Below, piece by piece: positions 1 to 64,000 of a DNA stretch of 64,000 nucleotides. Numbering within the stretch: position 1 is the first letter of the stretch; each line of letters begins with the position of its first letter. The notes beneath the pieces were generated by a model. It saw only the letters and a program-made list of their open reading frames with translations, searched no databases and was not told the origin of the DNA. The position numbers and the translations under genes are program-made. This DNA comes from a virus, in IMG/VR virus record IMGVR_UViG_3300045988_122866, positions 26,982-90,981 of that record. The stretch is one strand, 5' to 3'.

Positions 1-354
1 GGAACGGTATGGGGAGAACTTCCAGAGCCGGGTGAAGAACCTCAAGTTTTAGTTGATAGATCCAGTTTTAATTGTGATCTAACTGAAGAAGAAATTAATA
101 TTTTAGCTATTTTAATGATGTGCGGTTGGACGCAAAGACAAGTCGCTTCAATTGAGAATACTCGAATGAAATATAGTGGCTCTGATTTTAAATTTACTTC
201 TTAGGCAAATCACCTATCAAAGTTATTGAATTTATTGGGTGAATGTCAAAGACAATCTCACCATATGTAGCGTTTGTATAAACGCAGACGTCTAAATAAC
301 AAAGGTGAGTATGAATCTAATTGGGATGTGTTTAAAAGTCGATATGATTACTAA
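1..354 (+). CDS. C-terminal part of a virion-module protein; the 5' end lies outside the window and the gene stops at TAA 352-354
   Basis: Frame 1 is open from position 1, with in-frame TAG codons near 211 and 286 read as sense. It sits at the head of the structural module. Function not recognisable. Confidence 0.45.
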
Positions 355-652
355 ATATAATTTTGATATTCCAATAGAGAGTATAAAAGTAAATTGTTTG
401 CGCTTAACCAATCAATTATGGAAATTAATTCCAATGCGCGAAAATAATGAAGATTGGCATAAATAGCTAGAAACTGTTATAAATGAAATTGTGGGGTTTA
501 GTGTGATTTTTAGCGCTGAACCCCTTTATTTATAGTTATTAAACAAACTTGAGGGATTGTAGAATCAAGATACTGATTTTAATTTTTATCGTAAGACTGT
601 ATTTGAAACGATTAGTCTTTTATAGGAGATAAATTATGGCATCAGGGTTTGA
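344..652 (+). CDS. Hypothetical small protein of about 102 aa, possibly a head-tail connector-type gene
   Basis: Frame 2 is open from ATG 344 to TGA 650-652 when TAG is read through (4 internal TAG). It overlaps both neighbours. No RBS was checked. Confidence 0.3.
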
Positions 653-1700
653 TTATAGCAGTAAGCAACCTTTTAGATTATAGCAAGGTCGCTTAGGAAT
701 TTATGATAAACCACCCTTTGAAGGTAGCCCTGTTGAAGGCGTTAATTATACAGCGGTTCGGCTCGGTCAGATGGGCGGAAACCGCCAACAAGAGCGTATG
801 ATTTTATCTAAGCGCAGAAGTTTAGATAGAGCAGTATGGAATTCATACCAAGCCGCGGAAATTATTAAATAGGATGCGGAATATAAAAAACCTATTAGAT
901 GTTTGATTAATCCTAATAAATTAAAATAGGATTATGATGACAAGATTTTGTCTGTTGGAAATGAATATTAGTTTAAATCGGGAGATATTTTTGAATGGTG
1001 TGGAACTAATACCTATTGGATTTGTTATCTTTAGGATTTGACTGAATTAGCTTATTTTAGAGGAGATATTAGAAAATGCTCTTATAAGATAAATTGGGTA
1101 GATGAGGGAGAGAAAAAATCTACTTATGCAGCAATTCGCGGTCCTGTAGAAACGAAAATTGATTATATTCAGAAACATGAAATTAGTATAGATAATCCTA
1201 ATTATTCATTAAATATTTTAATGCCAAAAAATAAAGATACATTAAGATATTTTAAACGTTATACTAAATTTTATTTAGATAGTTAGGATGAAGGAGATAA
1301 TTTAATTTGTTGGCGTGTTGAAGCTGTAGATTCTATAAGCATGCCTGGCATTTTAGAAGTTAATGCGACTGAATATTATACTAATGAGTAGGAAGATAAT
1401 TTAAACGATAAGACTGTTGGTTCTTTAATTACAGAACCAATTGATCCAAATCCTACGACAACTGATATTATAGGGGAAACATTTATTTTTCCAAAGAAAA
1501 CTTATACTTATTATTTTGATGGTAAAGCTGTTTTAGAATGGAAAATAAAGAATAATAAAAAGTTGCCGGTTTCTTTAAAAATTATTAAAGAAGCAAAAAA
1601 GCCGACAGTTGAAATAAGTTGGACTTCTGGATATAGCGGATAGTTCGATTTATGTTATGGAGACTATAAGAAAACGATTGTAGTTCAATCATTGTTTTAA
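636..1700 (+). CDS. Hypothetical structural protein of about 354 aa
   Basis: RBS AGGAG precedes ATG 636. A single frame runs to TAA 1698-1700 with about 14 in-frame TAG and no TAA/TGA. It contains the tool ORF 1038-1286. Confidence 0.6.
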
Positions 1701-1715
1701 GGAGTAAAAGGTGTT

Positions 1716-3046: not shown

Positions 3047-4099
3047 ATGAAATTTGGTGTACGCGAAATTTGCGATGTCGTTTTAAAGGCAAAGGCTAAT
3101 CAAAAGATTGGTAATAAGCAATTTTATAAGAATGAGCCAGTTATTTATTTCGACACTTTAAAGACTTCCAGTATGGAAGGCGCTGCTACCACCGTATACG
3201 CACAAGGTGGTCGTGGTAATACTAACTTAGTCGCATGGGAAGGCGAGCGTACTGTTACCTTCACAATGGAAGATGCTCTTATTTCTCCTGAAGGTTTCAT
3301 GATTCTTTCCGGTGCTGGTCTTATTGAAGGTAATAAAGAGACAGGTTTAAAATCTGTTAAAATTAAGCAACATGTTACTCAAACTATTGATAAGGATACT
3401 GTTTCTAAAGTGGCTGATAATACTGCTATTGGCACTAAGGGATTAACTATTCCTCTTAGTTATAATCCTTATTTAAAAGATGGTACTGAGTATGAGAATG
3501 ATGCCACTGCAAAAGACGAAGACTATGTGTATGTTTTCTTTATGAAAGATGGTAATATTATTTCAGAGCCTTATATTGCTCATAAAGGAAGTCATACCAA
3601 AGATAGCTATAGTGTTACTATCGAGAATTCTTTTAAACGTAGCGAAAATGATGAAAATAAAAAATTCAATGATGGTAGCTATAAAGCTAATGATTTAGAA
3701 ACTGATTATAGTAAGTGCGATTCTGTAATGGTTGACTATTATACTGAGCGCGGTGAGGGTGCTAAGCAGATTGAAATTACCGCTGATAAGTTTGGTGGTA
3801 ATTATTATCTTGAGGCTTCTACTTTATTCCGTAATCAAGACGGTGTAGATATGCCTGCCGAATTTATCATTCCTAACTGCAAGATTCAGTCTAACTTTAA
3901 CTTTACAATGGCTTCTTCTGGTGATCCTTCCACCTTTACATTTACTATGGACGCATTCCCTGATTATACTCGTTTTGACCATAGTAAGAAGGTTTTGGCT
4001 GCTATCCAGATTATAGAAGAAAGTGAAGAAAGCGATAATGGTATTCGTATGTCTACTGCTGCAGATAAGGCCGTAGCATCAACTACCACTGGAGACTAA
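3047..4099 (+). CDS. Putative major tail protein of 350 aa with no TAG codons
   Basis: Strong RBS AAGGAGGA. The gene is completely free of TAG in a TAG-rich neighbourhood. It lies upstream of the chaperone-like gene and the tape measure, and is followed after a 60-aa ORF by a strong hairpin terminator. The call rests on position only. Confidence 0.4.
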   Translation: MKFGVREICDVVLKAKANQKIGNKQFYKNEPVIYFDTLKTSSMEGAATTVYAQGGRGNTNLVAWEGERTVTFTMEDALISPEGFMILSGAGLIEGNKETGLKSVKIKQHVTQTIDKDTVSKVADNTAIGTKGLTIPLSYNPYLKDGTEYENDATAKDEDYVYVFFMKDGNIISEPYIAHKGSHTKDSYSVTIENSFKRSENDENKKFNDGSYKANDLETDYSKCDSVMVDYYTERGEGAKQIEITADKFGGNYYLEASTLFRNQDGVDMPAEFIIPNCKIQSNFNFTMASSGDPSTFTFTMDAFPDYTRFDHSKKVLAAIQIIEESEESDNGIRMSTAADKAVASTTTGD

Positions 4100-4351: not shown

Positions 4352-5404
4352 ATGAATCAAGAAAATTTAATAAATTCTTTATTAGATGATTTATTAAATG
4401 ATAGCACTAATGAAATTAGTCAAGAAGTTATTCAAGAAAGAAAAGCATTAATTTTATCAGATATGACTCGATTAAAATAGATCCGAAAAGAATTAGAAGA
4501 TACTAAACTTTTAATGAAAAAAAGTATAACTAAATCCTCTTAGTTATATAGTATTTTAGGAGGTAGTTAGTCTAGGGGATTATCTTTAATAGTCAATAAA
4601 TAGAATGATTATGGTAAAATTAGTCGATTAATTCTTGAAGCCTATCACTTAACTACAAATATATTATCAAATGTAGGACTAATAAGTAAAGTAAATTATG
4701 TAATTACTTATTAGACAGATAAAGATTTTTATAGACTTACTGATATTCCAATTGATGAAAATGCTATGACCTATGAAATTCGAGGAGAAGATAAGGGAAA
4801 AACTAGATTAGTATTAAGAATGAATGAAAGCTATATCAGAAGTAAGGTAAATGAAAAAAAGAATAATAATGATATAAATTGGGTTTCCGCGCATTATAAA
4901 TAGTTTATATAGCCTTTTAAAGATGCTGAAAAACGAAGCTCTAAACGTAGAAAATATAAATTTACAATGAACGCGGGCGTGGCGGCTGAAGCTTTTGAGC
5001 GTCATTGGGAGAATTTACATCATCAATTAGATAAACCTTCTATTAATTATAACTTAGAAGTATAGAATCCTATTGGATATGCCTGGGTTTTATATAAATA
5101 GAGTTCTGGTAATGCTCCTTATTATACCGGTCCTGATACTTTATACTCTTAGGTTAAAAATAGTAACGCTAGTATTATTAGTAATGCAGATACAGTTTTA
5201 AATACCATGGAAGCTGTTATCCAAATGGGGGAAGAAAATATTAGTGAAAATGAATTAAATAAAATTAAAGAATAGTATAAAAAAGCTTTTAAAGCAAAAG
5301 AAGGAAAATTAAAAATTCCTAAAAAAATTATGATGAATGTCGATAAAGAAGCTAAAAAATAGATTAATAATGTTTTAAAAGATTTTAAAATTAAGAATAA
5401 TTGA
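4352..5404 (+). CDS. Hypothetical tail-module protein of about 350 aa
   Basis: RBS AGGAGG precedes ATG 4352. The frame is open to TGA 5402-5404 with about 10 in-frame TAG and no TAA. Confidence 0.55.
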
Positions 5405-6119: not shown

Positions 6120-9100
6120 ATGGCTAAACAATTAAATAGTTATTAGGTTAATTTACAATTTACTGCTGATGCTAAATAGGCTCAATAGCAATTATAGAGT
6201 TTGTAGAGTCAGTTGGATGCTATAACTAAAGGGTCATTAAATGCTAGTATAGGCACTGGCATCTCAGAGGAAATTACCAAATCTACTATTGCGGTCTAGA
6301 ATTTAAAAAATAGTTTATAGGAAGCTACTAATGTTAATACTGGTAAATTAGATTTAAGTAAATTTAATGCTAGTTTAAAAGCTTCTGGTATGAGTTTAGA
6401 AAAATATAGAGATATTTTAAAAACTTTAGGGCCAGAAGGCAATAAAGCATTTTCAACTTTAGCTAGTTCTATAGCTTAGGCTGAAATGCCATTAAAGAGA
6501 TCAAATGCTTTAATCTCAGAACTTTGGACCACTTTAAAGAATACTGCTCGTTGGCAAATTTCTTCAAGTATTTTACATGGTTTTATTGGATCAGTTCAAT
6601 CTGCGTATTATTATGCTTAGGATTTGAATGAATCTTTAAATAATATTCGTATTGTTACGGGACAAAATACTGAGTAGATGGCTAAATTTGCTAAATAGGC
6701 AAATGCTACTGCTAAAGCATTAAGTACTACTACTACAAAATATACTGATGCTGCTTTGATTTATTATCAATAGGGTTTATCTGATGAAGAAGTAAAAGAA
6801 CGTACTGATATTACAGTAAAAATGGCTAATGTAGCTCGTGAAAGTGCTGAAACGGTTTCAGATCAAATGACCGCGGTTTGGAATAATTTCTATAATGGAA
6901 GTTAGTCATTAGAGCATTATGCCGATGCGATGGTACGTCTAGGTGCTGATACTGCTTCTAGCGCTGATGAAATTGCTGGTGGTCTTGAAAAATTCGCAGC
7001 TGTTGCTAATACAATTGGTTTAAGCTTTGATAATGCGGCTGCTGCCTTAGCTACTATTACTGCCACTACTCGTCAAAGTGAAGATGTCGTAGGTACGGCT
7101 TTAAAAACTATCTTTGCTCGTATTCAAGGTTTAAAACTTGGTGAAACTTTAGAAGATGGCACTACATTAAATCAATACTCATAGGCTCTTGACAAAGTTG
7201 GAATTAATATTAAAGATTCTAACGGTGAATTAAAAGATATGGATAATATTATCGAAGAGATGGGTAATAAATGGTAGAGTATTGATAAAGATTAGCAAGT
7301 GGCTTTAGCACAATAGGTAGCGGGTGTCCGTCAATATACTCAGTTAATTGCTTTGATGGATCATTTTGATTATTATAAAGAAAATCTTGCTAGGGCATAG
7401 AGCGCTGATGGTTCTCTACAAGAACAAGCAGATATTTATGCGGAGTCTTGGGAAGCAGCCAGCAAGCGTGTTAAAGCAGCGATGGAAACTATATATTCTT
7501 CATTATTAAGTGATGAATTTTTTATTGATTTAGCTGATGGAGTAGGTAGCTTTCTTGAAATTTTAAATAGTGTAATAAAAAGTCTTGGTGGAATGAAGGG
7601 TTTACTTTTAGGAATTACTTCTATCGTTTTAACTAAAATGTAGCCACAAATTACGAAAGGTCTTAGTAATATTAAATATAATATTGACTAGATGACTGGT
7701 AAAGAAACTTAGAACGTTGCTAATACAAAAAAGACCGCAAATTAGATGTTAATAAATTCTGCGGATGTAAACTCTGTTTATGGGAAAAATGCTAATAAAG
7801 CTTATCAAGAATAGGCAAATCTTTAGAATGAGTATATTAGAATAGCTGATAAATTAACAGAAGTACAACAAAAAGAAGCAGCATCATATTTAGATATTTA
7901 GAAAAATTTAATTAAGAATATTGAACTTAAATCTCAAGAATTAGAAATAAGTGAAAAAGAAGCTTATAAAACTACAAATAGAGCTAAAGGAGATATTTAT
8001 TCTGGAGATTACACTAAAAATAGACTAACTTCTTAGCAAAGATCAGGTATTGATTTATTAATGAATGATTTGGCTTAGTAGAGTAAAGCTTATGCTGAAG
8101 TAGAAAGTTACCAATATAATTTAGGAACTTAGGGTGAAACAACGGTAAAAGACCTTGAAATATTAAGAAAAAAAATTAATGAATGTAGTATGTCTGCGGA
8201 AAAGTTTGGGCTTGCTTATGGGAAAGAAGGAGCTAAAGCATTTTTAGAATTTGAAAATGCTTTAAAAAATAATAATATTGACAAAGTAGATTAGTCATTA
8301 GAAAAATTAAATAACTTAATGACTTAGAGTGAACCAGTATATAGAGATACTAAAAATATTATTTTAGATTTTGTTACTGCTTTAGGAGCTACCGAAGATC
8401 AATATAATGATTTAAGTAAGGTTTTAGATGATATTGTTAGTAAAAATCAAAAAGTTGGAGAAACTGAATAGGATTTATCTAATAAACATGTTATTTTAAA
8501 GAATTTTACTAAACAAGTAGAAGAAGTATTTAAAGAACTATCAGTGCAAACAATGTCTGCTTCTCAATCATTTGTTGCTTTTGCTGGAGCTTTATCTTCT
8601 GTTGGTATGTTAGTATCATAGATTTAGGGTATTATAGAAACTTTTAATGATGATACAGTAGACACAAAAGATAAAATTATCAGTATCATAACTTCTTTAG
8701 GATTTATGATTCCTATGCTATCTTCTGTGATTAATAGCTTAAAAGATTCTCGTTTCTTTTTAGGTTCTTTAGGAGCTTAGATGGGAGTAGCTGCTAACGG
8801 GGCAGGATTGTTAAGTAAGTCATTGGGAGAGGTTAGTATAGCAGGAACTTAGACGGCTATTTCATTAGGATCAGTTTTAACTGGACTTTCTGGATTATTA
8901 GCAGCTATTGTAATAGTAGGAACTGTTATTCTTGCTATAAAAGGTGTTATTGATTATGTAAATTAGGCTTCAATTGCTTTAGAAGACGCTACCAAAAACG
9001 CAGAAAAAGCTAGTGATGCTTTCAATGAAGTAAAAACATCTTTTGATTCATTAAAAAGTGATATTGAAGATTACTCTTCTATGAAAGATTCCCTGGATAC

Positions 9101-12100
9101 TTTAACAGAAGGTACAAAAGAATGGAATGAAGCTTTACAAAAAAATAATGAACAAGTTTCTTAGATGCTTAAAAATTATCCTGAATTAGTTAAATATTTT
9201 GATAAAAAATCTAACGGATAGTATTATTTTACTGATACTGAAGCTGTTGAAAAAATTTATGACAATAAAGTAAAAAATGCTTAGAATGCTGTTAATATGG
9301 CAAATGTAGCTAAAGCTAATGCTAATTATAATAATGAGAGAATTGCTTCTTTAAGAGATGCTAGTTCTTTTGATACTTATAATAGTTCTGATTTTATGAA
9401 AAAAATTGGAAATAGCACAATAGCTGGTTCGGGTATGGCTGCTATTTTAATGGGGATATTGGGCGGTAGCGCTGCTGGAATAGGAGCTGGTCCAATTGGA
9501 GCTTTAGCTGGTGGATTAGTAGGATTAACTACTGCAATTATAGATAATCAAAAAGCGGCAGAAAAAAGTCAGTAGGCTATGGACCTTTTACAAGAAGCTT
9601 ATAAAGAATCTGGCACTTTAGTTTTTTCTTCTCAAGAAGAATTTACAAAAGCTCTTAAAGGCGTTAAAAATGATACTATAGAAGCATTATGGAAAAATGT
9701 TGATACTATTTAGGATTAGATCATAGCTTTAGATAATAATTCTACGTAGCTAAAGAATTTATTAGAAATAGCTTCTAGCGGATATAATGAAAATAATGAA
9801 GATTATAATAAATTAAATGATAAAGAAAAAGCTCTTGCTGACGCTGTTATTGCTGAAAGAGCATCAAAAGATATTACTAATTAGACTCAAGATTATGTAA
9901 ATGCTCGTTCTACTGGGGCAATGCTATTATCGGGAAATAAGTAGCAACAAAAATAGTATTTACAAGCAGTTTATGGAGCTGATAGTGAAAATTATCAAGT
10001 TAAACAAGGTTTGTTTGGAAAGTATACTATTTAGAAAAGAGACTCTAATGGGACTTGGGCTGATTATAAATCTGGAAATGCTAATGAATTAGGAGCAGAT
10101 TATGCTACTTATCTTTTAAATCAATTCACATCTGAAGACTCTGACAAAATTGATAAATTAACTCAAGTTAGGGATCAAATTAAATCTAAAGATAGCAAAG
10201 AAGATTTAAGTGAAAAAATTCTTTAGTTACAAAAAGATATTATAGATGGTGTTGGGGTATCTTTAGCTGGTTTTGATGAAGATGTTGTTGAAAATCTTAA
10301 AAATAATTTAGGTTAGATCCCTGATGAGTATAAAAAGTAGATAGAAGCAGCTATAGAAGATTATGAAAAGAATTCTTCTGATTATGCAATACAACGATTT
10401 GCTGAAAAAGCTGAAGCTGCTAAGGGTAATGCAGAAGGTGTTGGAGGGGTTTTAACATCTTTAAATAATGGTGATGATTTATCAACAGAACAAATTGCTT
10501 TTTTAGATACACTTAAATAGAAATATACTGAATTAAATGATATTAAAGATTAGGGTAGCCATGAATATTTAGCTTTATTAAGAGAAATTCAGGAACAAGA
10601 AGAAACTAATTATCTATAGGCTTTAGAAGATTCTAGAAATACTTTATTTAATCAAGCATCTGAATTATCAAAAGAAATAAAAAACAAAGAAAGCACTTTG
10701 AATGATCCTACTTTAGGTAAAGAAAAAAAGACTGAATTAGAAATTGAACTATAGGCAAAAACAGATAAATTTAATGAGGTAATGGATAAAATCCAAAATA
10801 CTGATTATTCAATTCAAGTTGCGATAGATGCTGATTTAAAGTCCGATGTTGATTAGGCTTTTGGATTAGCTGATGAATTTGAAAAATTATAGTCTTATGT
10901 GAGTGATGGTTTAACAATTAGCGTAGAAAAAGCACAGTAGATTATTGCTGATGGATATGGAGCGATACTCACAAATGCTGAAGAGACTGCGAATGGTTAG
11001 ATTAAATTAAATCAATAGGCAAGAGATTCTTTTATTGATGATAAACAGGCAGAATTGAATGCTGATAAAGATGCTAAAATTAAATAGTTAGAACTTGAGC
11101 GTCAAATGCTTGTTACTAAATAGCAAGCAACTGAAAAAGCTATTGAAATTTTATAGGGTGGATTAGAAGCAACTACTGCCACTGCTAAAGCAGAAGCTTT
11201 AGTTAATGCTGGTTTAGAATCTTAGAAAGCAGACCAAGCTGTATAGACTGAAGAAATAAAATCAAATGCTGCTGATGCCGGTAATGAAGAAATAGCTTAG
11301 GATACTGAAAATTTAGTTAATGATTTAGGTTTAATGTATTCAGATAATGCTAAAAATCTTGGTAATTCATTTGATGATGCTACAACAAATGCTGAAACAT
11401 CAGCATCAGCGCAAGTTTCAGCTTGGAACTAGGCTCAAAGAGCTGTTGTTGAATACGGTAAAAAAGTAAGAGAAGCTCCAAAAACCACCGGAGATATTTC
11501 TTATAATGAAATTAAATTTACGGGGTCTGGTAAGAAAAGTAAAACAACTGAAAGCACTCCTACTAGCAGTAATTATACTTATTCTGAATCTACTATTGGA
11601 GATACAGTTGATTCAATACTTCGTGAAGCCGGGAAGCATGAAAGTGGTACAGCATTTTTAGATGAGGCTATTGAAAAGGCTATCGCACAACAATAGTAGA
11701 AGCTTGCCGCAGTAAATGCTCAGATTGGTAGTATTGATGCAGGAATTGCTGCTTTAAAAAGTACTGATGTTTATTTAGATAGATTACAAAAGAATTTAGG
11801 AAAAACTTCTAGTGAAGTTAAAAAATTAGCGGAACGTTACCACGAGATAACTCGTGAAATTCAATATCAAGAAAAGCTTTTAGATAAGTTATCTAAAACT
11901 AAAGATAGAGTTTATGGCAAAACTAGAATTGATAATATCAATTAGGAAATTGAAGCTAATAAAAAATTAGTTGACTTACAAACCCAACTTTATGATTTAG
12001 TATTAGCTAATGTTCTTGTAGATTAGCAAGAAGTTCAAAAACAATTCGGTGGATAGGCAATTTTTAATAAAGAAACATTAGAAATTGATAATTATACTGC

Positions 12101-17700: not shown

Positions 17701-18153
17701 GGCGACATTATAATTAATTATACTGGTAGTACAGGCGACGGATGGGTTTATGGTAACAAAAGTTTAAGTTATATTTTAAATTAGATTGGAAAAGCGGCTA
17801 AAGAAGCTGGTGATTTAGCAGAAAGTTCTATTCAATGGACTAAAGATTTGGCACAAGCATAGGATGATATTAAATATGCTTTAAATGGAATTTCAAGTAC
17901 TGTTAGTATGTTGGATAAATTTTTTGAAATTGGTACTTCTATTGACGCCGAAGGGTACGTACATTATGGACAACGTCCATCTTTTACAAGTCCTCTTGGC
18001 GGTTCTGTTGCAGTGGGTTCTGGTGTACAGATTACAGGAGATAGAATTATTATAGGAGATAATCGAAGTTCAGTAAACTTTCAAAGTGCTACAATATATA
18101 TAACTGGAAGTACAACATTAGAAGAATATATTAGACAAATCGCTGGCGTTTAA
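14722..18153 (+). CDS. Large tail protein in the distal-tail-protein (Dit) position, about 1143 aa
   Basis: TTG start after RBS AAAGGAGGG. A single frame runs to TAA 18151-18153 with only TAG interruptions. It joins tool ORFs 14722, 15196, 16249, 17581 and 17908. Confidence 0.6.
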
Positions 18154-26240: not shown

Positions 26241-26287
26241 GTATTGATTAAAAAGATTTTATAAATAATAGAAAGGAGTCGATTATC

Positions 26288-50077: not shown

Positions 50078-50683
50078 TTATTTATCTTGGTCCATTTCCG
50101 CCCATTGCTTAACTTTTTGAGTTAAAAGATCAACAATATTATTATAATCTTCTAATGTTTCATTTATCACAATATTGCACTTAATATCATTCATTAGTTG
50201 AAATTGAATTTCATCAGCAGTATATCTTCTAACGATTTCATTTACATCAGGATTTTTTTCTCTATTTAATTGCCTAATTAAGCGTGTCGCTTCTTTGGCG
50301 ATGATATAATATATCTCTAATTCAATTCTATCATCTTTAAGAAGACTTATAATTCCTTCAGGATTAAAAACACCAATATTAATTTTACTGTCAGACAAAC
50401 TATCAATACTTGTGCCATAATACCAATTATTAAAAGAAGTGGTTTCTAACATTTTATTTTCATCAATTAAAGTTAAAAACTGATCATCTGAAACAAAATG
50501 ATAATTTTTGTCTGCTATTTCTTTTTCACGCTTCGGGCGCGTAGTATGGCTTATAATAGGATTTAGGTATTCTTCTAAGTGGGAAAAGGTAGCCATCATT
50601 AGGCTATCTTTTCCTGCACCAGATTTTCCACATAATGCAATAATTTTATACATCTTCTTCAATTCCTCCTTGATAACGAGCAT
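50078..50683 (-). CDS. Guanylate-kinase-like nucleoside monophosphate kinase
   Basis: P-loop GKSGAGKDS and a TTRPKRE motif. Confidence 0.65.
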   Translation of the reverse strand: MLVIKEELKKMYKIIALCGKSGAGKDSLMMATFSHLEEYLNPIISHTTRPKREKEIADKNYHFVSDDQFLTLIDENKMLETTSFNNWYYGTSIDSLSDSKINIGVFNPEGIISLLKDDRIELEIYYIIAKEATRLIRQLNREKNPDVNEIVRRYTADEIQFQLMNDIKCNIVINETLEDYNNIVDLLTQKVKQWAEMDQDK

Positions 50684-53600: not shown

Positions 53601-54659
53601 AATTAAAGAACAGATAATTGGATATTTATCAAACCATTCTGAAGGAATAAATCCTTTCTTATAATCCTTTACTTCAACTTTTGGAATAATTTGTTTTCTT
53701 TCTAATGAATAAAAAGAAATTTTATTTTGGATCTCTTGAGTGTTATCAAGAATCCAATTTATCAATTCTTTTCCTGTTTTATTATCTTTATCCCAATCAT
53801 TAGCATAAGGTTCCATTAATTCAAAAATTTCATCACTTGTCATTAAGTAAGTAAATTTATAAAAATCGTCAACTTCTCTTTCTCCTGGCTTAGAAGTAAG
53901 ATATGCTTTATGAATGGGTCTATCTTCTTTAGTTAAATAATGCGCGTCTGTTCCAACTACCATTTTTAAATCAAACGCCTTAGCGATTTGATAAATTTTA
54001 TGATTTACAATTATTTGCTCAGCATCAGTAGATGGCGCACATTCAAGATAAAAATCATCTTTTCCAAATACTTTAATACAAAAATTGATATAATCAATTA
54101 TTTGATTATAATATTTAGTTTGAGTTTCAATATCTTTGTTTAATTCAGCTTGGAACATTGGTAAAATACAGCTACCGAGTTCTCCACCAATACAAGCAGT
54201 TGTTGCTATAACATGCCCTTTATATTGTTCCATTACCATTTCAAGTTCACTTTTTAAAGTAGGAACTCGTTCCATTCGTCTATCAACATAACTATGAATC
54301 CAAGCAATAGAACTTAATTCTCTTAATGCTTTATGTCCAATGGCATCTTTAGCAATAAGAATAAAGTGGTAATATTTTTGTCCGTTATCTCTTGTATCAG
54401 TGAGATAAATTTCATTACCAAGAGCAATAGTAAAATCAGGATTTTCTTCTCTTATTTTTTTTGCATATTGATTTACTTCCATATGCGCAGAAAGGCATTC
54501 ATGGTCTGTAATAGTTATTCCTGATAGGCCTAATTCTATCGCTTTATCAATAAGAGCTTGTGGTCTATTGATACAATCTAATAGACGTAAATTTGAATAC
54601 ATTGTATGATTGTGAATCCCGAAATATGATCTCATTCGCACATTCCTTTCATCTTTCAT
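50646..54659 (-). CDS. dnaE: DNA polymerase III alpha subunit (DnaE-type) with an N-terminal PHP domain, 1337 aa
   Basis: PHP motif GIHNHTMYS at the N-terminus. The length and overall motif pattern fit PolIII alpha. No in-frame TAG. Confidence 0.85.
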   Translation of the reverse strand: MKDERNVRMRSYFGIHNHTMYSNLRLLDCINRPQALIDKAIELGLSGITITDHECLSAHMEVNQYAKKIREENPDFTIALGNEIYLTDTRDNGQKYYHFILIAKDAIGHKALRELSSIAWIHSYVDRRMERVPTLKSELEMVMEQYKGHVIATTACIGGELGSCILPMFQAELNKDIETQTKYYNQIIDYINFCIKVFGKDDFYLECAPSTDAEQIIVNHKIYQIAKAFDLKMVVGTDAHYLTKEDRPIHKAYLTSKPGEREVDDFYKFTYLMTSDEIFELMEPYANDWDKDNKTGKELINWILDNTQEIQNKISFYSLERKQIIPKVEVKDYKKGFIPSEWFDKYPIICSLINSDNIQERYWVNECIKALQEKQLYDNKNYLERLEIEADIIKDIGEKLDDCLFAYFNTFQHYINLFWECGSIVGPGRGSATGFLSNYLLGITQLDPIRWGLPYWRFLNKERAELPDIDIDLAPSKRPAIFKAIRKERGELGLVQVATFGTEGTKQSILTACRGYRSEEFPEGIDVDNAQYMSSLIPQERGFLWPIHDVIYGNEEKDRKPVQAFIREVNQYPGLLDIIVYIEGMVNKRSSHASGVILYGDDPFDTASFMRTPSGDMITCWDLHKAEAAGDTKYDFLVTEASDKIITCYQLLLKDKQIPELSLREFYNKYIHPEVIDTTDQAIWDHLAAGDVLDVFQFSTGVGLAIAKRLKPQDPMEMTAANAMMRLMSEKGKESQQDRYYRIQHSGIKVFDDEMKAQHLPQELIDKMHKHCDKYYGCCPIQEQMMEILMDVAHFTLGEANTARKIVAKKQMAKIPQLREQVFSKFDNEKSAEYFWEIAVAPQLGYAFSLNHSLPYSFVAIQMIYLVIHFNPIYWDTACLIVNSGSLEDNSEEEIVDIYAPEGDDLANGVTFEDLPDKSGKIRKTAATDYGKIAKAISDIQKAGIEVGLPDINKSKFGFAPDIENNKILFGLKGMLNVGDELVNTIIANRPYSNPKEFLYRIKPGKQAMISLIKGGAFDNMMDRKELMIWYIWETCDKKKRITLQNMGGLMKYDLLPEENENQIMARRIYEFNRYLKAICKTTKNNGLYQLDERAINFLVEIGEDNNIQFDGTNYSLSENIWNGIYQKWMDIFRTWIANNKDEILNNLNIKIFKDDWDKYANKNNLSAWEMEVLCYYYHTHELNNINNDKYGFVDFFKLPEDPIIDRSFTKGNHTIHIYKLFKICGTCIAKNKTKSTVTILTTTGPVEVKFRKEYFSLFDKQISERGADGTKHIVEKSWFNRGNMIVVSGIRNGDNFMSKKYASSGGHQLYKIDEILSNGDLVLKDARYQGGIEEDV

Positions 54660-55579: not shown

Positions 55580-56779
55580 TTACTTCCTTATAATTACTAA
55601 TTTATCGCTAGCCCTAGTAGCCATAGTATATAAATACTTTTTATGTTCTTCTCGATCAAAAGGATGATTTTCTTCAAATCCTAATACTTTTCCATACTCG
55701 CTACCTTGCGCTTTCCAACAGGTAATAGCGTAAGCATAGGAGAAATCAAGGGGAGGATCGAGGCATTGTTTATTATTTCTTAATTGATAGCATTGACTAC
55801 CTGTAAGAGTCCCTTCACCGGTAATAAGTTGTTTATAATCAATTGGAGTCCCACAAAATTTATCTCCATCGCTTAAAACAATTTGAGTAAACATATAAGT
55901 AATAGGAACTTCTGAAATATAATAAGGGACTCGAATGTCTTCAGTATAAAAATCTTCAATAGTTCCAACAGTGCCATTAGTTAAAGCCCATACTCGGTTT
56001 TCAGACATGAAATCCCAGTTATTATGTAATCCAATAATTTTATCTCCAATTTGAGGGACATTAGGATCAAATCCTTTTCTTAATCGGACTACATTATTAA
56101 TTTTAGTTCTTGTAGCATTTTTAGCACAAATGATCTAATCAGCCCAATCATACATTTCAGGTATAACTTGACTTTTATCATATACTCTTACTTGTTTTCC
56201 TTCTGGACGATAAGAAATTAAAGATTTGCCTTCTCTAATCCACATTGAGAAACGAATAATCTCACTATCTTGCGCTTGACGCATAATTTCATCGAGAAAA
56301 ATATGTGGTTTATCTAATACATGATTATTTTCATTAGGATCTACAGGAGGTAATTGACCTGGGTCGCCGGCCGCAATAATATAAATACCATGGGTTAGCA
56401 TTAAGTCCCATAACTTTTTAGGAAGCATTGATACTTCATCGACAACAATTACTTTATATTGGGCTAATTCACTGTTATCTTTTGGAAAAAATTTAAAAGT
56501 TCCATTGGCCATCATTTTAGCTTTATATAAAAGTTTATGCGCGGTTGTTGCATTTGGGCAACCTTTTTGTTGAAGCACAGTCGCAGCTTTACCTGTAAAT
56601 GCTACATAACAAACTTCTTCTTCTGGATCAACATCAAGAGCAGAAATAATAAATTTAATCAAAGTGCTCTTTCCGCTTCCCGCGTATCCCGCTATACAAG
56701 TCCAACGCTCATGGGCATAATAGCGCTCAACCGCAATTTTTAATCCTTCTTCTTGTTTACGAGTTAATTCCATTTTCAC
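55580..56779 (-). CDS. Dda/RecD-like superfamily 1 DNA helicase
   Basis: Walker A GYAGSGKST, VVDEVSM, and a C-terminal …WKAQGSEY motif. Two tool ORFs are joined through TAG 56135-56137. Confidence 0.8.
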
Positions 56780-56978
56780 AGTCTCCAGGGTTTAATCTAT
56801 AATATTTATTCTCATCAACTATAAAATAATCACAAGCCCATTTTAATGTTCCATAAACACCTGTTGTATGTCTATCTATGTTATCTAATTTAGAAATTAA
56901 TTCTTGAGCTTTATTATAATAAGAACAATTTTCATAATTAGAACAATAATTACATTGTTCTTTCCAGTAAATCCACAT
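56757..56978 (-). CDS. Cys-rich small protein of 73 aa
   Basis: Intact ORF. Confidence 0.45.
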   Translation of the reverse strand: MWIYWKEQCNYCSNYENCSYYNKAQELISKLDNIDRHTTGVYGTLKWACDYFIVDENKYYRLNPGDCENGINS

Positions 56979-58990: not shown

Positions 58991-59163
58991 AAATGATTTC
59001 CTCCTAATAGGTTTTTTAAGTCTATTAGTCGTAGTGTCAATTATTAAAAATAATAAGCAGCCCTATCTACAATTTCGTAATCTTCTATAATAATCTAAGG
59101 ACTAATATTATTATTCCATATATTTCGTTCGCATTTACCAACGATATTAATTGTCACATAACC

Positions 59164-60792
59164 CTATTCAGAATACAATTTCTCGTATTCCTCCTCGGAC
59201 GACTTAAACTTGATTAAACTGATGCCATCTGGCATAGTTATCTTCAAGGTAGGATTTTTATCTTTTGACATTAAAGTTAAGTTATTTGATGCAACTTTTA
59301 TTCCTTCAACGGCAATAGATGCTTCTTCTACCCCTTGGCCCCAAAGTGGTTTAAGTTGAGCGATATCAATAATATCTTTTCCAACTAAATCATTAGTGTG
59401 ATAAATAAAATCAACACTATAAATTGGGGTGAAATCAAAATCTTGTAAAGCAGAATTCGCGTATTCAATAAATTTATCAAAATTATCATCAATAATACCA
59501 AATCCAAAAGCATTAGGATGTCCTTCCGCATACATAATTAGATTTGATTTTTGACAAAATTCTCTAAAGTCTTTAAGCGCGGATTTGTCGTATCCTCTGC
59601 CGGAGCCTTCCCAACAAATTTGTTGAGTTTCTTCATCTATTGTTTTATTAAGAATTAAAACAGGACATTGATATTTGCTCATTAATTGATTGGCCATTAA
59701 TCCAGTCAAATTTTTGTCAGCAGCAAATCCATCTAACTTAATTCCTAAGATTTTATTACTTAAAAGATTTTGATTTGCGATTATCTATTCAATTTTTTCC
59801 AAGCTAGTGTCTCTGATTTTAGTTTGCCTATTCTTGATATTAGTACAATTACGACAAGCTTGTTCTACTCTTGTTTCTGCTTGACCTTTACATCCACGTT
59901 TTGTTGAAGGGACAAGTTCGTATCCCTTAAAATCAAGCATCGACTCGAATAGCATGAGCTTTTCTTCTTGCGTCCCAACACGAGTAGTTGCATTAACTAA
60001 AGGAGCAATATAGAAAGCTACTCCAATAGGCGTAATCTCATTATTAAAATGAAACTAATCTCTATTGATTATGCCTCTGAAGTAAGGATTGGTGATTTGT
60101 TGTAAGCCTTTATTAATTAAATGTTTTGTTTCAAAATCACGCATATCCATCATGTCGGCCACCATTCCAAGAGCAACTAAATCCAATATATGATCCGCAT
60201 ACTGAACATTCATAAGTTCATCAATATAACAACAAAACTTATAAACCATTCCTACACCAGATAAAGATTTGGTCGGATAATCACATAATTGATTGTTAAT
60301 AATACAAGCATACTATGATATTTTATCAGCTTCATGGTGGTCTATTACCAACACGTCAATACCATTTTTATATAAATATTCGTGTTCTAAATAATCATTT
60401 GATGAAGAATCTGGAGCAATTACTAATTTAATATCTTTATCAATACTATCTGGTATAATTCCGTGTTGTTTTCCTGCATGGACACGATAAAAAATATTGT
60501 TTTGCACAAACGCAGGAAAAAGACAGTATAAGTAATTCATGAGTGCAGCCGCCGAAGTATAGCCATCACAATCACTATCTACCTATATAAGAACTTTGTC
60601 ATTTTGTGCAATATGTTTGACGAGCATTTTTGCACCATTTTCTATTCTATCAATAGTTGCTGGTTCTATAATGTCGTCATCAGTGGTATTAAGATAATGA
60701 GGAATATCTTGTAATTTAATTCCTCTATTGGTTAGCACCTGTTCGACCGCTGAATACTGCGGGATGCGAGGAGCTTTTAGTTGATAGTCCAT
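59164..60792 (-). CDS. RecJ-like DHH-family single-strand DNA exonuclease of about 542 aa
   Basis: DHH motif (VIDHHEADKIS) and DHHA1 motif (EGHPNAFGFG). Four tool ORFs share one frame and are separated only by TAG, for example at 60055-60057 and 59785-59787. Confidence 0.7.
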
Positions 60793-60861
60793 AGGCTATT
60801 CAACCTCCTTTCATAATACCACCACTATTATTTAAGAATTTCTATAATTTACTTATTCATA

Positions 60862-61179: not shown

Positions 61180-61466
61180 AAACCACTCTCTCCCATCTTA
61201 TGCCCTAATGGACAAATATGAAAAAGAACAGGAATCTCTATTTCCGTATATCCTTTTTCTAAATCTCCATTATATCTAATTACTTTTCGAGTTTCAATTC
61301 CACTTGATATACAATTACTGGTTTTGTCATAATATTTATTACATTTATCGCAATAAATACAACTTCGGAGCAAACTATCTCTTTGTTTTTTTAATCCTTC
61401 GATTTGCGCGCTCAGTGAAATAATTGTATCATTTACAGAGATAGGAATATCATAATCATCATTCAT
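61176..61466 (-). CDS. Small Zn-ribbon protein of 96 aa
   Basis: Contains CIYCDKC…HICPLGH. Confidence 0.45.
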   Translation of the reverse strand: MNDDYDIPISVNDTIISLSAQIEGLKKQRDSLLRSCIYCDKCNKYYDKTSNCISSGIETRKVIRYNGDLEKGYTEIEIPVLFHICPLGHKMGESGL

Positions 61467-62566
61467 ATAAATATCCTTTCCTTATATAATTGTAAAAATT
61501 TTTCTTTACCCTCATCAATTGGTGAATCTTTGTATTTTGTAATCATATTTTTATCAAAAATAAAAGATATAAGCACATCATTTTTAAATTTAGTTCTAAT
61601 CTTTAAAAGATTTAACTTTAAGTGTTGAAATTCCGCATCTCCAATTTCTTGGAATTGCCTATCAAAAGCAATTATAATTTCCTGCGCACCGCTATCTAAC
61701 AATAGTTGAATTTGATGCGAAGAAACATTGCTTCCGCAACAAGCTACTGATATATTATTATTCCAACCAAAATCAGTTGCATATTTTAATACTGATTTTT
61801 CGCTTTCAAAAATGATTGCTTTTTTCATTATGCCAATGGCATTTTTAGACCAATTTAATCCATATAAGTTCATTCCAAGAGGATGATTATATAATTGATT
61901 ATTTATTTTCATTGGTCTATATTTCCCATATAGCTCCGCCTCGTCTTTGCACATAGTGCGTCCGCGCAAGCCTACAAATCTTCCACTAATATCATAATGA
62001 GGAATCGTAATTTGATCGGCTCCTGGATAAAAACCAATACGTGCTTTATTAATTACCTCTTGAGAAATTCCCTCATCAAGCCAAGGAATTATTTTAATAT
62101 TATAATTTAATCTATTTAAAATAGAGTCATCATAATCTTTTAGAATAATTTTATTATTTTTTAATTCAATCTCTTGAATACGAGAATAATTTGATAAAAT
62201 TTTCCAATCATCTAAAGTTTTACCCATATCGTCATCTTTTATCATGCCTGACAAACCAAAACGACGAGCAACCCATAACACTGAATCATTTAAATCAAAT
62301 TCTTCATCATATTGAATTTTCATTACTTTAGAACATAATTCAAAAATATCAAAAGTTGAATCGCATCCCGTGTAGCATTTAAATAATCCTGTATTTTCAT
62401 AAAAATAAAGTTTTCTGCTACCTTCTCCAGGAGGATTATGACAAATGGTGGAAGAGAGAATCCCGAATTCTGTATATTCAGGATCTCCGCCCCATTCAAT
62501 TAATAAATCATAAATATTTTCAAGCCCAAGAGCTTGACGAATTTCTGATTTATCAAATACTATCAT
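61463..62566 (-). CDS. DnaG-like DNA primase with a zinc-binding domain and a TOPRIM domain
   Basis: Zn-finger CHNPPGEGSRKLYFYENTGLFKCYTGC and a TOPRIM-like EIIIAFD segment. Confidence 0.75.
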   Translation of the reverse strand: MIVFDKSEIRQALGLENIYDLLIEWGGDPEYTEFGILSSTICHNPPGEGSRKLYFYENTGLFKCYTGCDSTFDIFELCSKVMKIQYDEEFDLNDSVLWVARRFGLSGMIKDDDMGKTLDDWKILSNYSRIQEIELKNNKIILKDYDDSILNRLNYNIKIIPWLDEGISQEVINKARIGFYPGADQITIPHYDISGRFVGLRGRTMCKDEAELYGKYRPMKINNQLYNHPLGMNLYGLNWSKNAIGIMKKAIIFESEKSVLKYATDFGWNNNISVACCGSNVSSHQIQLLLDSGAQEIIIAFDRQFQEIGDAEFQHLKLNLLKIRTKFKNDVLISFIFDKNMITKYKDSPIDEGKEKFLQLYKERIFI

Positions 62567-62735
62567 AAGTAATTACTTTAGAACAATTTCTCATAAGTCC
62601 ACACTGTTCATTAACATAATGGACAAGCATTTCCTGCGGACGAAGCTTAGCAAGACTAGGAACGGCTTTATAAGAACGAATAATCTCCTTAGCCATTCTA
62701 TTGCTCATCTTGTATTCAACATTACCACTCTTCAT
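62553..62735 (-). CDS. Hypothetical protein of 60 aa
   Basis: Intact ORF. Confidence 0.35.
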   Translation of the reverse strand: MKSGNVEYKMSNRMAKEIIRSYKAVPSLAKLRPQEMLVHYVNEQCGLMRNCSKVITYDSI

Positions 62736-62752
62736 AATTTTTCTCCTTAATT

Positions 62753-64000
62753 TTAAAAAGCTGACTCTTCTTCAAGAGTAATTTTTATATCATCAATAGG
62801 AACAAGTTCATAAGCGTATGTAGTACAAAACATAGGAATAATTCTACAAGTTCCTAAATCTGCTTTACACCATAAAATAACTCCTTTATACCTACCACGT
62901 CTATTTTTATAAACAGACATTTTAATAGTTGGAGTATCAAATAATTTTGTGTTTAGTATTTTTTCCAATGAAATTAAATCATCATCTTGGACATTTAAAA
63001 GAATTGATCCATAATCTACTTTATCGGCAATAGATTTTGCTCCACGCAAAAGATTCTGGTCAGGAGTTTTAGAATCAACATAATCACCATTTAACTGTGT
63101 TGCTGACATAATAAAAACACCATATTGATTACAGATATCTTTTAATTTGTTAGATAGCATAAAAAGTATGTTATCTTCACGAAGTTTTACTCCACCACTA
63201 CGACGAGTAATTTCTTCAAGAATTTTCATGCTTGTATGAATATAGTCGTGAAATATATATTTTACATCGTGATCTCGGATGCCTTTTTTGATTTCATTCT
63301 CGACATCCTGCAATGAAAAATCAGGTAATTCACGGATATACAATGGGCTATCTTTAAGAATTTTTGCGGCCTCTATTACTCGTTCTTTTTCATTTCCTTG
63401 ATATTCATTATAAATAATATGTTCTTCATTCACATTAGAAAGAAAAGCAAGCATCATTGTTTGAATTTCATTTTTATCTTGCTCTGTAGTTATATACAAT
63501 ACTGGTTCTTGAATTCCGTTTTTAATCCAACTTCCAAAAGTATCATCATATATTTTATTACAAGCAATATAGCACGAATCCGCAATCATAGAACGAGTTT
63601 TACCTACTCCTGTGGCCGCGGAACGCAAATAAAACTTTTTAAGTCTTGCACCACGAGTAACTGTATTAATTAATGGCCCATATAGAGGACTTCCTGCTAT
63701 TGGATGTTGCTCTAAGTCATCAAGCAATTCAAAAATTCCATCACCTGCTTGAACCGCAACTCCTTCAACGTCATTTACATACTCATATTTAATTTGTTCT
63801 ATGCGGTCATCAATTAATTGTGCGATATGCTCTAATGAAGAATTATCAAGATTATCTTCTTGTAATTGTTTTTTTTCAGTATCTAAAATATTATCAGGAT
63901 CATAAATAAAAGAAACATCAATGCCATATCTGTCATAAGCACGAAGTAGAGACATTTTTTTTAAACGACCATAATAATAATCAAATGACAAAGGTTTCGC
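62753..64000 (-). CDS. DnaB-like replicative helicase; the 5' end lies beyond the window edge
   Basis: RecA-like C-terminal domain with Walker A ATGVGKTRSM and FIMSATQLNG. The frame stays open to position 64000. Confidence 0.85.
   Translation of the reverse strand, partial: AKPLSFDYYYGRLKKMSLLRAYDRYGIDVSFIYDPDNILDTEKKQLQEDNLDNSSLEHIAQLIDDRIEQIKYEYVNDVEGVAVQAGDGIFELLDDLEQHPIAGSPLYGPLINTVTRGARLKKFYLRSAATGVGKTRSMIADSCYIACNKIYDDTFGSWIKNGIQEPVLYITTEQDKNEIQTMMLAFLSNVNEEHIIYNEYQGNEKERVIEAAKILKDSPLYIRELPDFSLQDVENEIKKGIRDHDVKYIFHDYIHTSMKILEEITRRSGGVKLREDNILFMLSNKLKDICNQYGVFIMSATQLNGDYVDSKTPDQNLLRGAKSIADKVDYGSILLNVQDDDLISLEKILNTKLFDTPTIKMSVYKNRRGRYKGVILWCKADLGTCRIIPMFCTTYAYELVPIDDIKITLEEESAF

What the first reader, a model, noticed from the sequence alone, without database searches (positions are those of the whole stretch)
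1..64000. TAG (amber) is read as a sense codon across the whole element
The 8.5 kb tape-measure gene (6120-14606) stays open in one frame with on the order of 100 in-frame TAG and no TAA or TGA. The same holds for a 7.7 kb fiber gene (28664-36409) and for the Dit/Tal-position genes. Conserved enzymes (NrdD, the Dda-like helicase, RecJ-like exonuclease and RuvC-like resolvase) appear split in the supplied track only at TAG positions, with protein-like sequence continuing in frame on both sides. Every gene I could close ends at TAA or TGA (for example TGA at 5402, 21237, 23879, 36407, 43287 and 44603), and these ends are usually followed by hairpin terminators. This resembles translation table 15, as reported for stop-codon-recoded gut phages. 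Standard annotation would misreport the element as heavily pseudogenised. No suppressor tRNA gene was found in this window.
Basis: partly seen in the sequence, partly recalled or inferred. Interest (0 to 1): 0.85.

Follow-up and report, generated by a model that had tools for sequence, protein, structure and literature searches.

The report
Gut phage reads TAG as glutamine
This 64 kb stretch of a roughly 195 kb SPbeta-like gut phage uses the stop codon TAG as a glutamine codon, mostly in its late structural genes, and close relatives carry the matching suppressor tRNA; this is real but is a further example of a recoding already described in gut phages.

Summary
With TAG read as sense, open-frame length rises from 40.8 to 69.2 kb. 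The tape-measure gene (6120-14606) has 88 in-frame TAG and no TAA or TGA; the fibre gene (28664-36409) has 27. TAA and TGA occur in frame only at gene ends.

TAG means glutamine. In 98 of the fetched related loci, TAG sites swap almost only with CAA/CAG (19 of 20 changes at 95% identity or more), and the substitution profile of TAG fits Gln far better than any other residue.

Use is uneven: 36.5% of Gln codons in the late + strand block against 10.7% in the replication block. Pol III alpha, primase, DnaB and the tail tube are TAG-free.

The window has no tRNA. About 60 kb past its right end, relatives carry a tRNA(CUA) at one fixed place in a tRNA array, in 14 of 14 loci that cover the spot. 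The arrays serve 19 amino acids, all but Gln. I could not read that region on the window's own contig.

The closest published relative is phAss-1, a 136 kb code-15 phage (tail tube 49% identical). This is a new member of a known kind (Borges et al.; Babkin et al.), so interest is moderate to low.

The parts
6120..14606 (+). Tape-measure gene: 2828 codons, 88 in-frame TAG, ends in TAA
   Evidence: The identical gene on L134 is called whole (2828 aa) with PF10145 PhageMin_Tail.
28664..36409 (+). Giant fibre gene: 2581 codons, 27 in-frame TAG, ends in TGA, followed by a hairpin at 36544-36575
14767..18153 (+). Distal-tail or baseplate-position gene: 1128 codons, 23 TAG
18360..21239 (+). Tail or baseplate-position gene: 959 codons, 9 TAG, ends in TGA
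21217..23523 (+). Tail or baseplate-position gene: 768 codons, 8 TAG
23884..26199 (+). Fibre-like gene: 771 codons, 10 TAG
4352..5404 (+). Structural-block gene with the highest share of TAG among its Gln codons for a gene of this size: 12 TAG against 5 CAA/CAG
3047..4099 (+). Tail tube gene (Pfam YomU_Tube): 350 codons, TAG-free
   Evidence: 49% identical to the phAss-1 homologue.
41674..42120 (+). Small late gene with the densest TAG use: 8 in 148 codons
47781..50066 (-). Anaerobic ribonucleotide reductase NrdD: 2 in-frame TAG
   Evidence: One Pfam NRDD match over residues 46-664. PDB alignment: TAG site 1 aligns with Gln in 9d3x and with Met in 8p23.
47290..47814 (-). NrdG activase: 1 TAG at residue 150 of 164
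   Evidence: The Pfam Fer4_12 match over residues 15-154 runs across the TAG.
55580..56791 (-). Dda/PIF1-like SF1 helicase: 1 TAG. Standard-code gene callers split it into 212 + 142 or 167 aa.
59044..60810 (-). DHH/RecJ-like exonuclease: 6 TAG
45145..45723 (-).
   Evidence: No Pfam or PHROGs match
50646..54659 (-). DNA polymerase III alpha (YorL-like): 1337 codons, TAG-free here and in all seven relatives that were checked in frame
61463..64000 (-). Primase-position gene and DnaB-like helicase, both TAG-free

Best explanation
The window is the late structural block plus the replication block of a roughly 190-197 kb SPbeta-like tailed phage from pig and human gut. In this phage TAG is a glutamine codon (translation table 15), and only TAA and TGA end genes.

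Likely course of events. The host reads TAG as stop. The TAG-free genes (Pol III alpha, primase, DnaB-like helicase, dUTPase, guanylate kinase) can therefore be made at once. The phage then expresses its own tRNA arrays, which include an amber suppressor tRNA with anticodon CUA. A host enzyme charges it so that glutamine is inserted. That opens the about 250 in-frame TAG codons, which lie mainly in the tail, tape-measure, baseplate and fibre genes. Recoding thus acts as a translational gate on late genes.

Shown: TAG is sense; TAG corresponds to Gln; TAG use is biased to the late block; relatives carry a conserved tRNA(CUA). Inferred: that the window's own genome carries this tRNA; which enzyme charges it; the order of expression; and the standard code of the host.
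For: 1. Only TAG as sense restores long ORFs. In-frame TAA and TGA are confined to gene ends, while TAG occurs 16 times per 1000 codons.
2. Pfam, PHROGs and PDB matches run through TAG sites.
3. Codon comparison with ORFs from 98 related loci. At 95% identity or more, 19 of 20 non-TAG partners of a window TAG are Gln (CAA 16, CAG 3). At 60-80% identity the partners are Gln 296, TAG 155 and the next residue, Lys, 22. Most exchanges are TAG with CAA, two base changes apart, so the signal lies at the amino-acid level. The substitution profile of TAG is closest to that of Gln (KL 0.13; next is Lys at 0.91).
4. TAG makes up 36.5% of Gln codons in the + strand late block against 10.7% in the - strand block (odds ratio 4.8, p = 1e-14). 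Pol III alpha is TAG-free in all seven relatives checked.
5. A tRNA(CUA) lies between tRNA-Val(UAC) and tRNA-Tyr(GUA) in 14 of 14 related loci that cover the site. There are 4 distinct sequences. In a four-sequence alignment (two of them, a more distant relative, and phAss-1), 13 of 20 stem pairs show compensatory changes.
6. The two tRNA arrays hold standard-anticodon tRNAs for 19 amino acids; Gln is the only one missing.
7. The closest GenBank relative, phAss-1, is a published code-15 phage with three Sup-CTA tRNAs that tRNAscan-SE typed as Gln.
8. The pattern matches the one described for recoded gut phages (10.1101/2021.08.26.457843).
Against: - The tRNA(CUA) was seen only in relatives (about 93-95% nucleotide identity along the chain of overlapping loci). 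I could not read that region on the window's own contig, ENA ERZ27260998:k119_127087.
- About 25 kb of the genome type remains unread.
- By sequence the suppressor tRNAs are no closer to tRNA-Gln than to tRNA-Trp or others, so their isotype origin is open.
- At one NrdD site a solved homologue has Met rather than Gln.
- Per site, Gln is the majority partner at only 44 of 146 sites, as expected for variable surface positions.
- Host identity and the timing of expression are not measured.
Confidence: 0.88

Rival explanations
1. The element is a decaying, heavily pseudogenised prophage, and the TAG codons are true nonsense mutations.
For: Standard-code gene callers do fragment the genes; for example the helicase is split into 212 + 142 aa.
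Against: Only one of the three stop codons interrupts genes. TAG sites are conserved, or exchanged with CAA/CAG, across many independent assemblies from pig and human gut. There is no frameshift decay, and ORFs of 8.5 and 7.7 kb stay open (p about 1e-81 and 1e-74).
Confidence: 0.01
2. TAG is a sense codon but stands for an amino acid other than glutamine, such as pyrrolysine, tryptophan, tyrosine, lysine or glutamate.
For: ARAGORN labels the tRNA 'Pyl(cta)', but that label follows from the anticodon alone. The suppressors are 64-71% identical to the phages' tRNA-Trp. From my own knowledge, an E. coli tRNA-Trp carrying a CUA anticodon is a known amber suppressor.
Against: The substitution profile fits Gln (KL 0.13), against Lys 0.91, Glu 1.03, Tyr 2.14 and Trp 3.51. 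Tyr, Trp, Leu and Ser are one base away from TAG yet are rare partners. Gln is the only amino acid without its own tRNA in the arrays. No pyl genes were noticed in the Pfam-annotated loci.
Confidence: 0.04
3. The host itself reads TAG as glutamine, so the phage merely mirrors its host's code and there is no code switch.
For: The host is not identified. The bins that hold related contigs carry mixed labels such as Mollicutes, Clostridium and Acutalibacteraceae.
Against: The phage carries its own tRNA(CUA). It keeps its replisome genes and a block of at least 25 kb at 40-46% GC essentially free of in-frame TAG, which makes sense only if TAG is not readable at first. Borges et al. predict standard-code Firmicutes or Bacteroidetes hosts for all TAG-recoded clades. 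From my own knowledge, no bacterial lineage with a genome-wide TAG to Gln code has been described.
Confidence: 0.04

Closest known systems
phAss-1 and the proposed genus Phassvirus (GenBank OQ749652; NCBI 'Caudoviricetes code 15 clade'; Babkin et al. 2023, PMC10607447)
   Same: Both are gut siphovirus-type phages with a tape measure of about 3000 aa, NrdD/NrdG, dUTPase, TAG read as Gln in terminase, portal, tape-measure and fibre genes, arrays of about 30-36 tRNAs and tRNA-Sup(CTA). phAss-1 gives the best GenBank match both to the window's tail tube (49% identity) and to the suppressor tRNA (73.6% over its full length). The suppressors share a 1:72 mismatch, G73 and the anticodon loop CUCUAAA.
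   Different: The genome is about 190-197 kb against 136 kb. There is no nucleotide-level match. phAss-1 has three Sup-CTA genes plus two ordinary tRNA-Gln, and two of its suppressors sit directly upstream of nrdD. Here one suppressor sits upstream of a second fibre module, and no tRNA-Gln was found.
TAG-recoded gut phage clades of Borges et al. (Lak, crAss-like, Jade, Sapphire, Agate, Garnet, Amethyst, Topaz; 10.1101/2021.08.26.457843)
   Same: Code 15. Recoding is concentrated in structural and lysis genes and is variable in replication genes. Suppressor tRNAs are present. The sources are pig and human gut. Structural genes lie in more than one recoded module, as reported for Jade, Sapphire, Agate and Lak.
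   Different: No RF2 was found here, whereas some Lak and Agate phages have one.
SPbeta-like phages of Bacillus (SPBc2, phi3T) and the large Enterococcus siphoviruses EF1 and VRE9
   Same: Shared gene set and order. Pfam families named after SPbeta genes match here (YomU_Tube, YomV, YomW, YonB, YonD, YonG, YorF). The YorL-type Pol III alpha is 39% identical over 99% of its length. The tail tube is 38-40% identical to that of the Enterococcus phages.
   Different: Those phages use the standard code: Babkin et al. report no recoding in EF1, and for SPbeta this rests on my own knowledge. They are 127-142 kb and have nothing like the two tRNA arrays seen here.

Membership tests
Code-15 (TAG to Gln) recoded phage | Conserved genes are interrupted only by TAG and become full-length when TAG is read as sense | tested here: met
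Code-15 (TAG to Gln) recoded phage | TAG positions correspond to glutamine in homologues | tested here: met
   relatives; one NrdD site has Gln in PDB 9d3x
Code-15 (TAG to Gln) recoded phage | TAA and TGA remain terminators | tested here: met
   All 50 ORFs end in TAA (38) or TGA (12). This is true by construction, but the ends coincide with gene boundaries and with hairpins.
Code-15 (TAG to Gln) recoded phage | The phage encodes a tRNA with anticodon CUA | tested here: inconclusive
   Absent from the window. Present in 14 of 14 related loci that cover the syntenic site. That region of the window's own contig could not be fetched.
Code-15 (TAG to Gln) recoded phage | Recoding is enriched in late structural or lysis genes, and early genes are readable in the standard code | tested here: met
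   36.5% against 10.7% of Gln codons, p = 1e-14. Pol III alpha, primase and DnaB are TAG-free.
Code-15 (TAG to Gln) recoded phage | The host uses the standard code | not testable with these tools
   Host not identified. The MAG labels of related contigs are unreliable.
Phassvirus (phAss-1 genus) | Genus-level nucleotide similarity to phAss-1 | tested here: not met
   Megablast of window 36000-60000 against 50,697 phage records found nothing. Only protein-level similarity exists (49% for the tail tube).
SPbeta-like phage lineage | Shared structural and replication gene families (Yom, Yon and Yor families; YorL-type Pol III alpha) | tested here: met
Pyrrolysine decoding of TAG | TAG positions are not Gln-like, and a pylT-type tRNA occurs with pylS and pylBCD | tested here: not met
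   The profile is Gln-like. The tRNA has an ordinary cloverleaf, and the ARAGORN 'Pyl' label rests on the anticodon alone. No pyl genes were seen among the Pfam-annotated neighbours.
Jade or Sapphire clade (Borges et al.) | Terminase falls in the named clade with at least 95% bootstrap support | not testable with these tools

The most novel reading that the evidence does not exclude
This phage lineage may run a two-compartment translation programme.

- One compartment, at least 25 kb read so far and possibly much larger, has 40-46% GC. It consists of small genes on one strand and shows no sign of in-frame TAG use.
- The other compartment has about 30% GC and holds the structural and replication genes.
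- The low-GC compartment may depend on the phage's own tRNA arrays: about 30 tRNAs for 19 amino acids (several read A- or U-ending codons), in which the tRNA-Gln slot is filled only by a CUA suppressor with an unusual unpaired 1:72 position.

If so, the code change would be one part of a wider phage-driven takeover of decoding, and the 1:72 mismatch would be the identity feature that lets a host enzyme load Gln onto the suppressor.
Probability: 0.25. Interest if true: 0.6.

Novelty: new member of a known kind. Interest (0 to 1): 0.35.

Why it matters
In practice, standard annotation with table 11 would report this roughly 195 kb phage family as fragmented. Public gene calls already split its helicase, and binning has filed its contigs under bacterial names such as 'Mollicutes' and 'Clostridium'. 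Re-calling with table 15 recovers tail proteins of 2828 and 2581 residues.

Biologically, it adds an SPbeta-like, probably Bacillota-infecting lineage of about 195 kb to the code-15 phages. The split between a TAG-free replisome and TAG-rich late genes is very clear. The suppressor tRNA sits at a fixed position, and it is the only 'glutamine' tRNA in an otherwise complete phage tRNA set. That makes the lineage a convenient system for asking which host enzyme charges such suppressors. It does not change the known picture of phage stop-codon recoding.

Tried and rejected
- Nucleotide search of 24 kb of the window against GenBank phages: no match.
- Rfam on the window: nothing.
- Search for the suppressor tRNA by walking the genome. 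Eight scans of viral contigs covered about 0-50 kb and 109-197 kb of the circular 197 kb relative IMG/VR 3300045988_118370 and found no tRNA at all. Only the metagenome scan and three rounds of protein search plus contig look-up reached the arrays.
- ARAGORN with relaxed thresholds gave hundreds of hits. The conserved low-scoring 'CUA' candidates (L252:16934, L371:5036) have poor stems, and I rejected them.
- Direct link to the window's own contig failed. The exact Pol III alpha protein is not on record under either start. P0122 and P0304 are not indexed. Wider look-ups of DnaB and of the NAGPA-domain protein did not list the same contigs.
- Isotype of the suppressor from sequence similarity. 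BLAST against E. coli genomes found no match. Pairwise identities to 98 phage tRNAs do not separate Gln from Trp, Val or Gly.
- Release factor: no GGQ[HNS]VN motif in six-frame translations of 7.2 Mb of loci.
- 'RuvC-like' identity of 45145-45723: no support from Pfam or PHROGs.
- Host from genome bins: the contigs are phage-sized and the labels inconsistent, so I did not use them.
- Structure prediction, fold search and the large representative-protein search were not needed.


Full report
**1. The observation**

The window has 29.9% GC. Stop-to-stop ORFs of at least 300 nt sum to 40.8 kb under the standard code. They sum to 69.2 kb if TAG is sense, but only 47.1 kb if TGA is sense. The longest ORFs grow from 4.0 kb to 8.5 and 7.7 kb.

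- The tape-measure ORF runs from ATG 6120 to TAA 14606. It has 2828 codons, 88 in-frame TAG and no TAA or TGA.
- The fibre ORF runs from 28664 to 36409. It has 2581 codons and 27 TAG and ends in TGA.
- From base composition, such ORFs have probabilities near 1e-81 and 1e-74.
- In the coding frame of the + strand genes, TAG occurs 16 times per 1000 codons. TAA plus TGA occur 1.9 times per 1000, at gene ends only. In the other two frames TAA plus TGA reach 49 and 150 per 1000.
- Pfam matches run straight through TAG sites. NrdD matches over residues 46-664 across two TAG. The AAA_30/PIF1/UvrD_C_2 helicase has one TAG, the DHH + RecJ_OB protein six, and NrdG one. PHROGs matches do the same, for example residues 1-240 of a 241-residue protein that has six TAG.
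- The window holds no tRNA and no Rfam family.
- The 'RuvC-like' label for 45145-45723 could not be confirmed.
- Strong hairpins with T-runs follow several module ends, at 28604, 36544, 39030, 40668 and 44589. There are 14 against 6.2 +/- 2.8 expected in 26-46 kb.

**2. What the element is**

Pol III alpha (50646-54659, minus strand) finds its best cultured relatives in SPbeta-like Bacillus phages (YorL, 39% identity over 99% of its length) and in large Enterococcus siphoviruses.

Public gene calls around exact copies of window proteins carry Pfam families named after SPbeta genes: YomU_Tube, YomV_2nd, YomW, YonB, YonD_N, YonG_N and YorF. The gene at 3047-4099 is therefore the tail tube.

IMG/VR, ENA, Logan and JGI hold many contigs of 190-198 kb from pig and human gut whose polymerase is 96-100% identical. 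One of them, IMG/VR 3300045988_118370 (197,006 bp), has the polymerase gene split over its two ends, so it is circular or circularly permuted.

The window is 100% identical over its first 12,297 bases to ENA ERZ27260998:k119_127087 (159,189 bp).

Modules are mosaic. Contigs with a 99-100% identical polymerase have tail tubes only 64-77% identical.

**3. Which amino acid**

I translated ORFs from the 126 related loci then in hand (98 gave matches) with TAG as X and aligned them to the window's proteins.

- At 95% identity or more, 736 window TAG sites face TAG. Of the 20 that face something else, 19 face Gln (CAA 16, CAG 3).
- At 60-80% identity the partners are Gln 296, TAG 155, Lys 22 and Asn 21.
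- The reverse comparison, TAG in a relative against the window residue, gives the same picture.
- Most exchanges are TAG with CAA, two base changes apart. The residues one base away from TAG (Tyr, Trp, Leu, Ser) are rare. So the conservation lies at the amino-acid level.
- The substitution profile of TAG is closest to that of Gln (KL 0.13; next are Lys 0.91 and Glu 1.03). Of 146 sites with a non-TAG partner, 81 have Gln among their partners.
- In solved NrdD structures, the first TAG site aligns with Gln in 9d3x (motif Q-Y-G-G) and with Met in 8p23. The second site lies in a gapped region.

**4. Where TAG is used**

The + strand late block (1-44605) has 225 TAG in 13,470 codons, which is 36.5% of all Gln codons. 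The minus-strand block, mostly replication and nucleotide metabolism, has 24 in 6,313 codons, which is 10.7% (odds ratio 4.8, p = 1e-14). In the + block 24 of 27 genes contain TAG; in the minus block 11 of 23 do.

Pol III alpha, the primase-position gene, the DnaB-like helicase, dUTPase, guanylate kinase and the tail tube have none. Pol III alpha is TAG-free in all seven relatives that I translated in frame. NrdD, NrdG, the Dda-like helicase and the RecJ-like protein need read-through of TAG.

This is the pattern that Borges et al. describe and interpret as a translational gate on late genes (10.1101/2021.08.26.457843).

**5. How TAG is decoded**

I walked along related genomes. Eight scans of viral contigs found no tRNA from about 20 kb left of the window to about 40 kb right of it, nor in a 40-46% GC block upstream of the terminase.

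The metagenome scan then found a first array, 3-9 kb upstream of a vault-protein-like gene: Thr, Ser, Ser, Leu, Gly, Lys, Cys, and in some relatives Ala. It also found a well-formed tRNA(CUA) in a more distant relative, at L358:613-690.

Two further steps passed a second fibre module (DUF6273, Mtd_N, Flg_new) and reached a second array of 23 tRNAs that starts after a YcaO gene.

- In that array a tRNA(CUA) sits between tRNA-Val(UAC) and tRNA-Tyr(GUA), about 1.2 kb upstream of the Flg_new gene.
- It is present in all 14 loci that cover the site. There are four distinct sequences: three of 73 nt and one of 90 nt with a long variable arm.
- Aligned with the L358 suppressor and one phAss-1 suppressor, 13 of 20 stem pairs show compensatory changes. 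All sequences keep the anticodon loop CUCUAAA, an unpaired 1:72 position and G73.
- Together the two arrays hold standard-anticodon tRNAs for 19 amino acids. Gln is the only one missing.
- No class-I release-factor motif was found in 7.2 Mb of fetched loci.

**6. Limits of the link**

I could not read the suppressor region on the window's own contig. By synteny it should lie about 60 kb beyond the window's right end, still inside that 159 kb contig.

The chain of overlapping loci from the window to the suppressor runs at 92-100% nucleotide identity per step. Fragments of the NAGPA-domain and Flg_new genes that flank the suppressor are recorded on a 196,076 bp JGI contig. That length equals IMG/VR 3300045988_110853, whose polymerase is 98% identical to the window's. 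About 25 kb of the genome type was not read.

Sequence similarity does not tell whether the suppressors descend from tRNA-Gln or from another isotype. Their nearest non-suppressor relatives include tRNA-Trp at 64-71% identity. Which enzyme charges them is unknown.

**7. Comparison with what is known**

The best GenBank match of the suppressor (73.6% over its full length), and the highest-identity match of the tail tube (49% over 64% of its length; other records cover more at 38-44%), is phage phAss-1 (OQ749652). NCBI files it under 'Caudoviricetes code 15 clade'.

Babkin et al. (PMC10607447) describe it as a 136 kb phage with a 3149-residue tape measure and 36 tRNAs. Three of those are Sup-CTA genes typed as Gln, and TAG stands for Gln in 41 ORFs. 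They place it in a group with Enterococcus phage EF1.

The present phage differs in size (about 195 kb), has no nucleotide similarity to phAss-1, and has a different tRNA layout. It is therefore not a member of that genus.

Its size and habitat fit two of the large clades of Borges et al. (210 +/- 35 and 201 +/- 22 kb, probably Jade or Sapphire), as does the spread of recoded structural modules over the genome. I could not test membership.

**8. Verdict**

TAG is a glutamine codon here, most likely decoded by a phage-encoded amber suppressor tRNA, and it is concentrated in late genes. The phenomenon is well documented, so this is a new member of a known kind. Its practical value is for annotation, and it has some value as a clean system for studying how suppressor tRNAs are charged.

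Noticed in passing
Relatives, outside the window: L254:5500-20360, L265:1-15000, L169-L179:1-6500: About 3.5 kb upstream of the terminase gene the GC content jumps from about 28-30% to 40-49% and stays there for at least 25 kb. The block consists of short genes (100-270 aa) on one strand that end mostly in TAA or TGA, and reading TAG as sense gives no particular gain. So a roughly 195 kb phage genome has two compositional compartments, and only the low-GC one is recoded.
   Followed up: partly
Relatives: L383:2545-13224 (array of 23 tRNAs), L343:861-5628 and L344:1846-5069 (second array): About 30 phage-encoded tRNAs in two arrays cover 19 amino acids. The only amino acid without a standard-anticodon tRNA is Gln, whose place is taken by tRNA(CUA).
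   Followed up: yes
L379:8750-8822, L383:12490-12562, L398:5583-5672, L358:613-690, phAss-1 L387:6001-6072: All suppressor tRNAs have an unpaired 1:72 position (U.C, C.U or U.U) and G73, although their stems are otherwise strongly diverged and compensated. This may be an identity feature for charging; it was not tested.
   Followed up: partly
L343:3182-3310, L344:2910-3038: A RAGATH-33 RNA motif (Rfam RF03102; 127 and 125 bits against a gathering score of 120.4) lies inside the second tRNA array.
   Followed up: no
L376 and L379 (second structural module), L383:23-1576: Far from the main tail genes, relatives carry a second TAG-containing fibre module: a Flg_new repeat protein (674 aa), two Mtd_N-domain proteins (the domain of the Bordetella phage tropism determinant that is diversified by a retroelement), DUF6273, and a fibre whose C-terminal part resembles that of window gene 39095-40222. 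Nearby are an 828-aa protein with a vault MVP_shoulder domain, and a YcaO gene.
   Followed up: no
window 26252-26869 and 26878-28545: Two fibre-like ORFs look protein-coding from their first codons but have no ATG for 160 and 307 codons. Each has a TTG near its start (codon 12 and codon 2), so they probably start at TTG. The second ORF, 556 codons long, is TAG-free.
   Followed up: partly
L018, L025, L028, L030, L036, L039, L040, L046 (polymerase matches of 4.9-5.9 kb instead of 4.0 kb): In several relatives the Pol III alpha match spans 1-2 kb more DNA than in the window, which suggests inserted elements (inteins or introns) in the polymerase gene.
   Followed up: no
window 40668-40711 and 44589-44635; gene 40714-41529 (minus strand): Two long perfect hairpins (19-20 pairs) with T-runs on both strands act as two-way terminator-like sites where genes converge. 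The first separates the + strand late genes from a lone minus-strand gene embedded in the late block.
   Followed up: no
L331-L342 (GTDB genome contigs): Phage-sized contigs of this family (128-176 kb) are deposited inside bacterial MAG bins labelled Mollicutes, Clostridium, Acutalibacteraceae, Bacilli, Lachnospiraceae and Endomicrobiaceae. They are probably mis-binned phage DNA, not prophages.
   Followed up: no
L127-L132 against L133-L134: The public gene calls are inconsistent for the same phage. Some contigs were called with the standard code (helicase split into 212 + 142 or 167 aa) and others with TAG as sense (tape measure called whole at 2750-2828 aa).
   Followed up: yes
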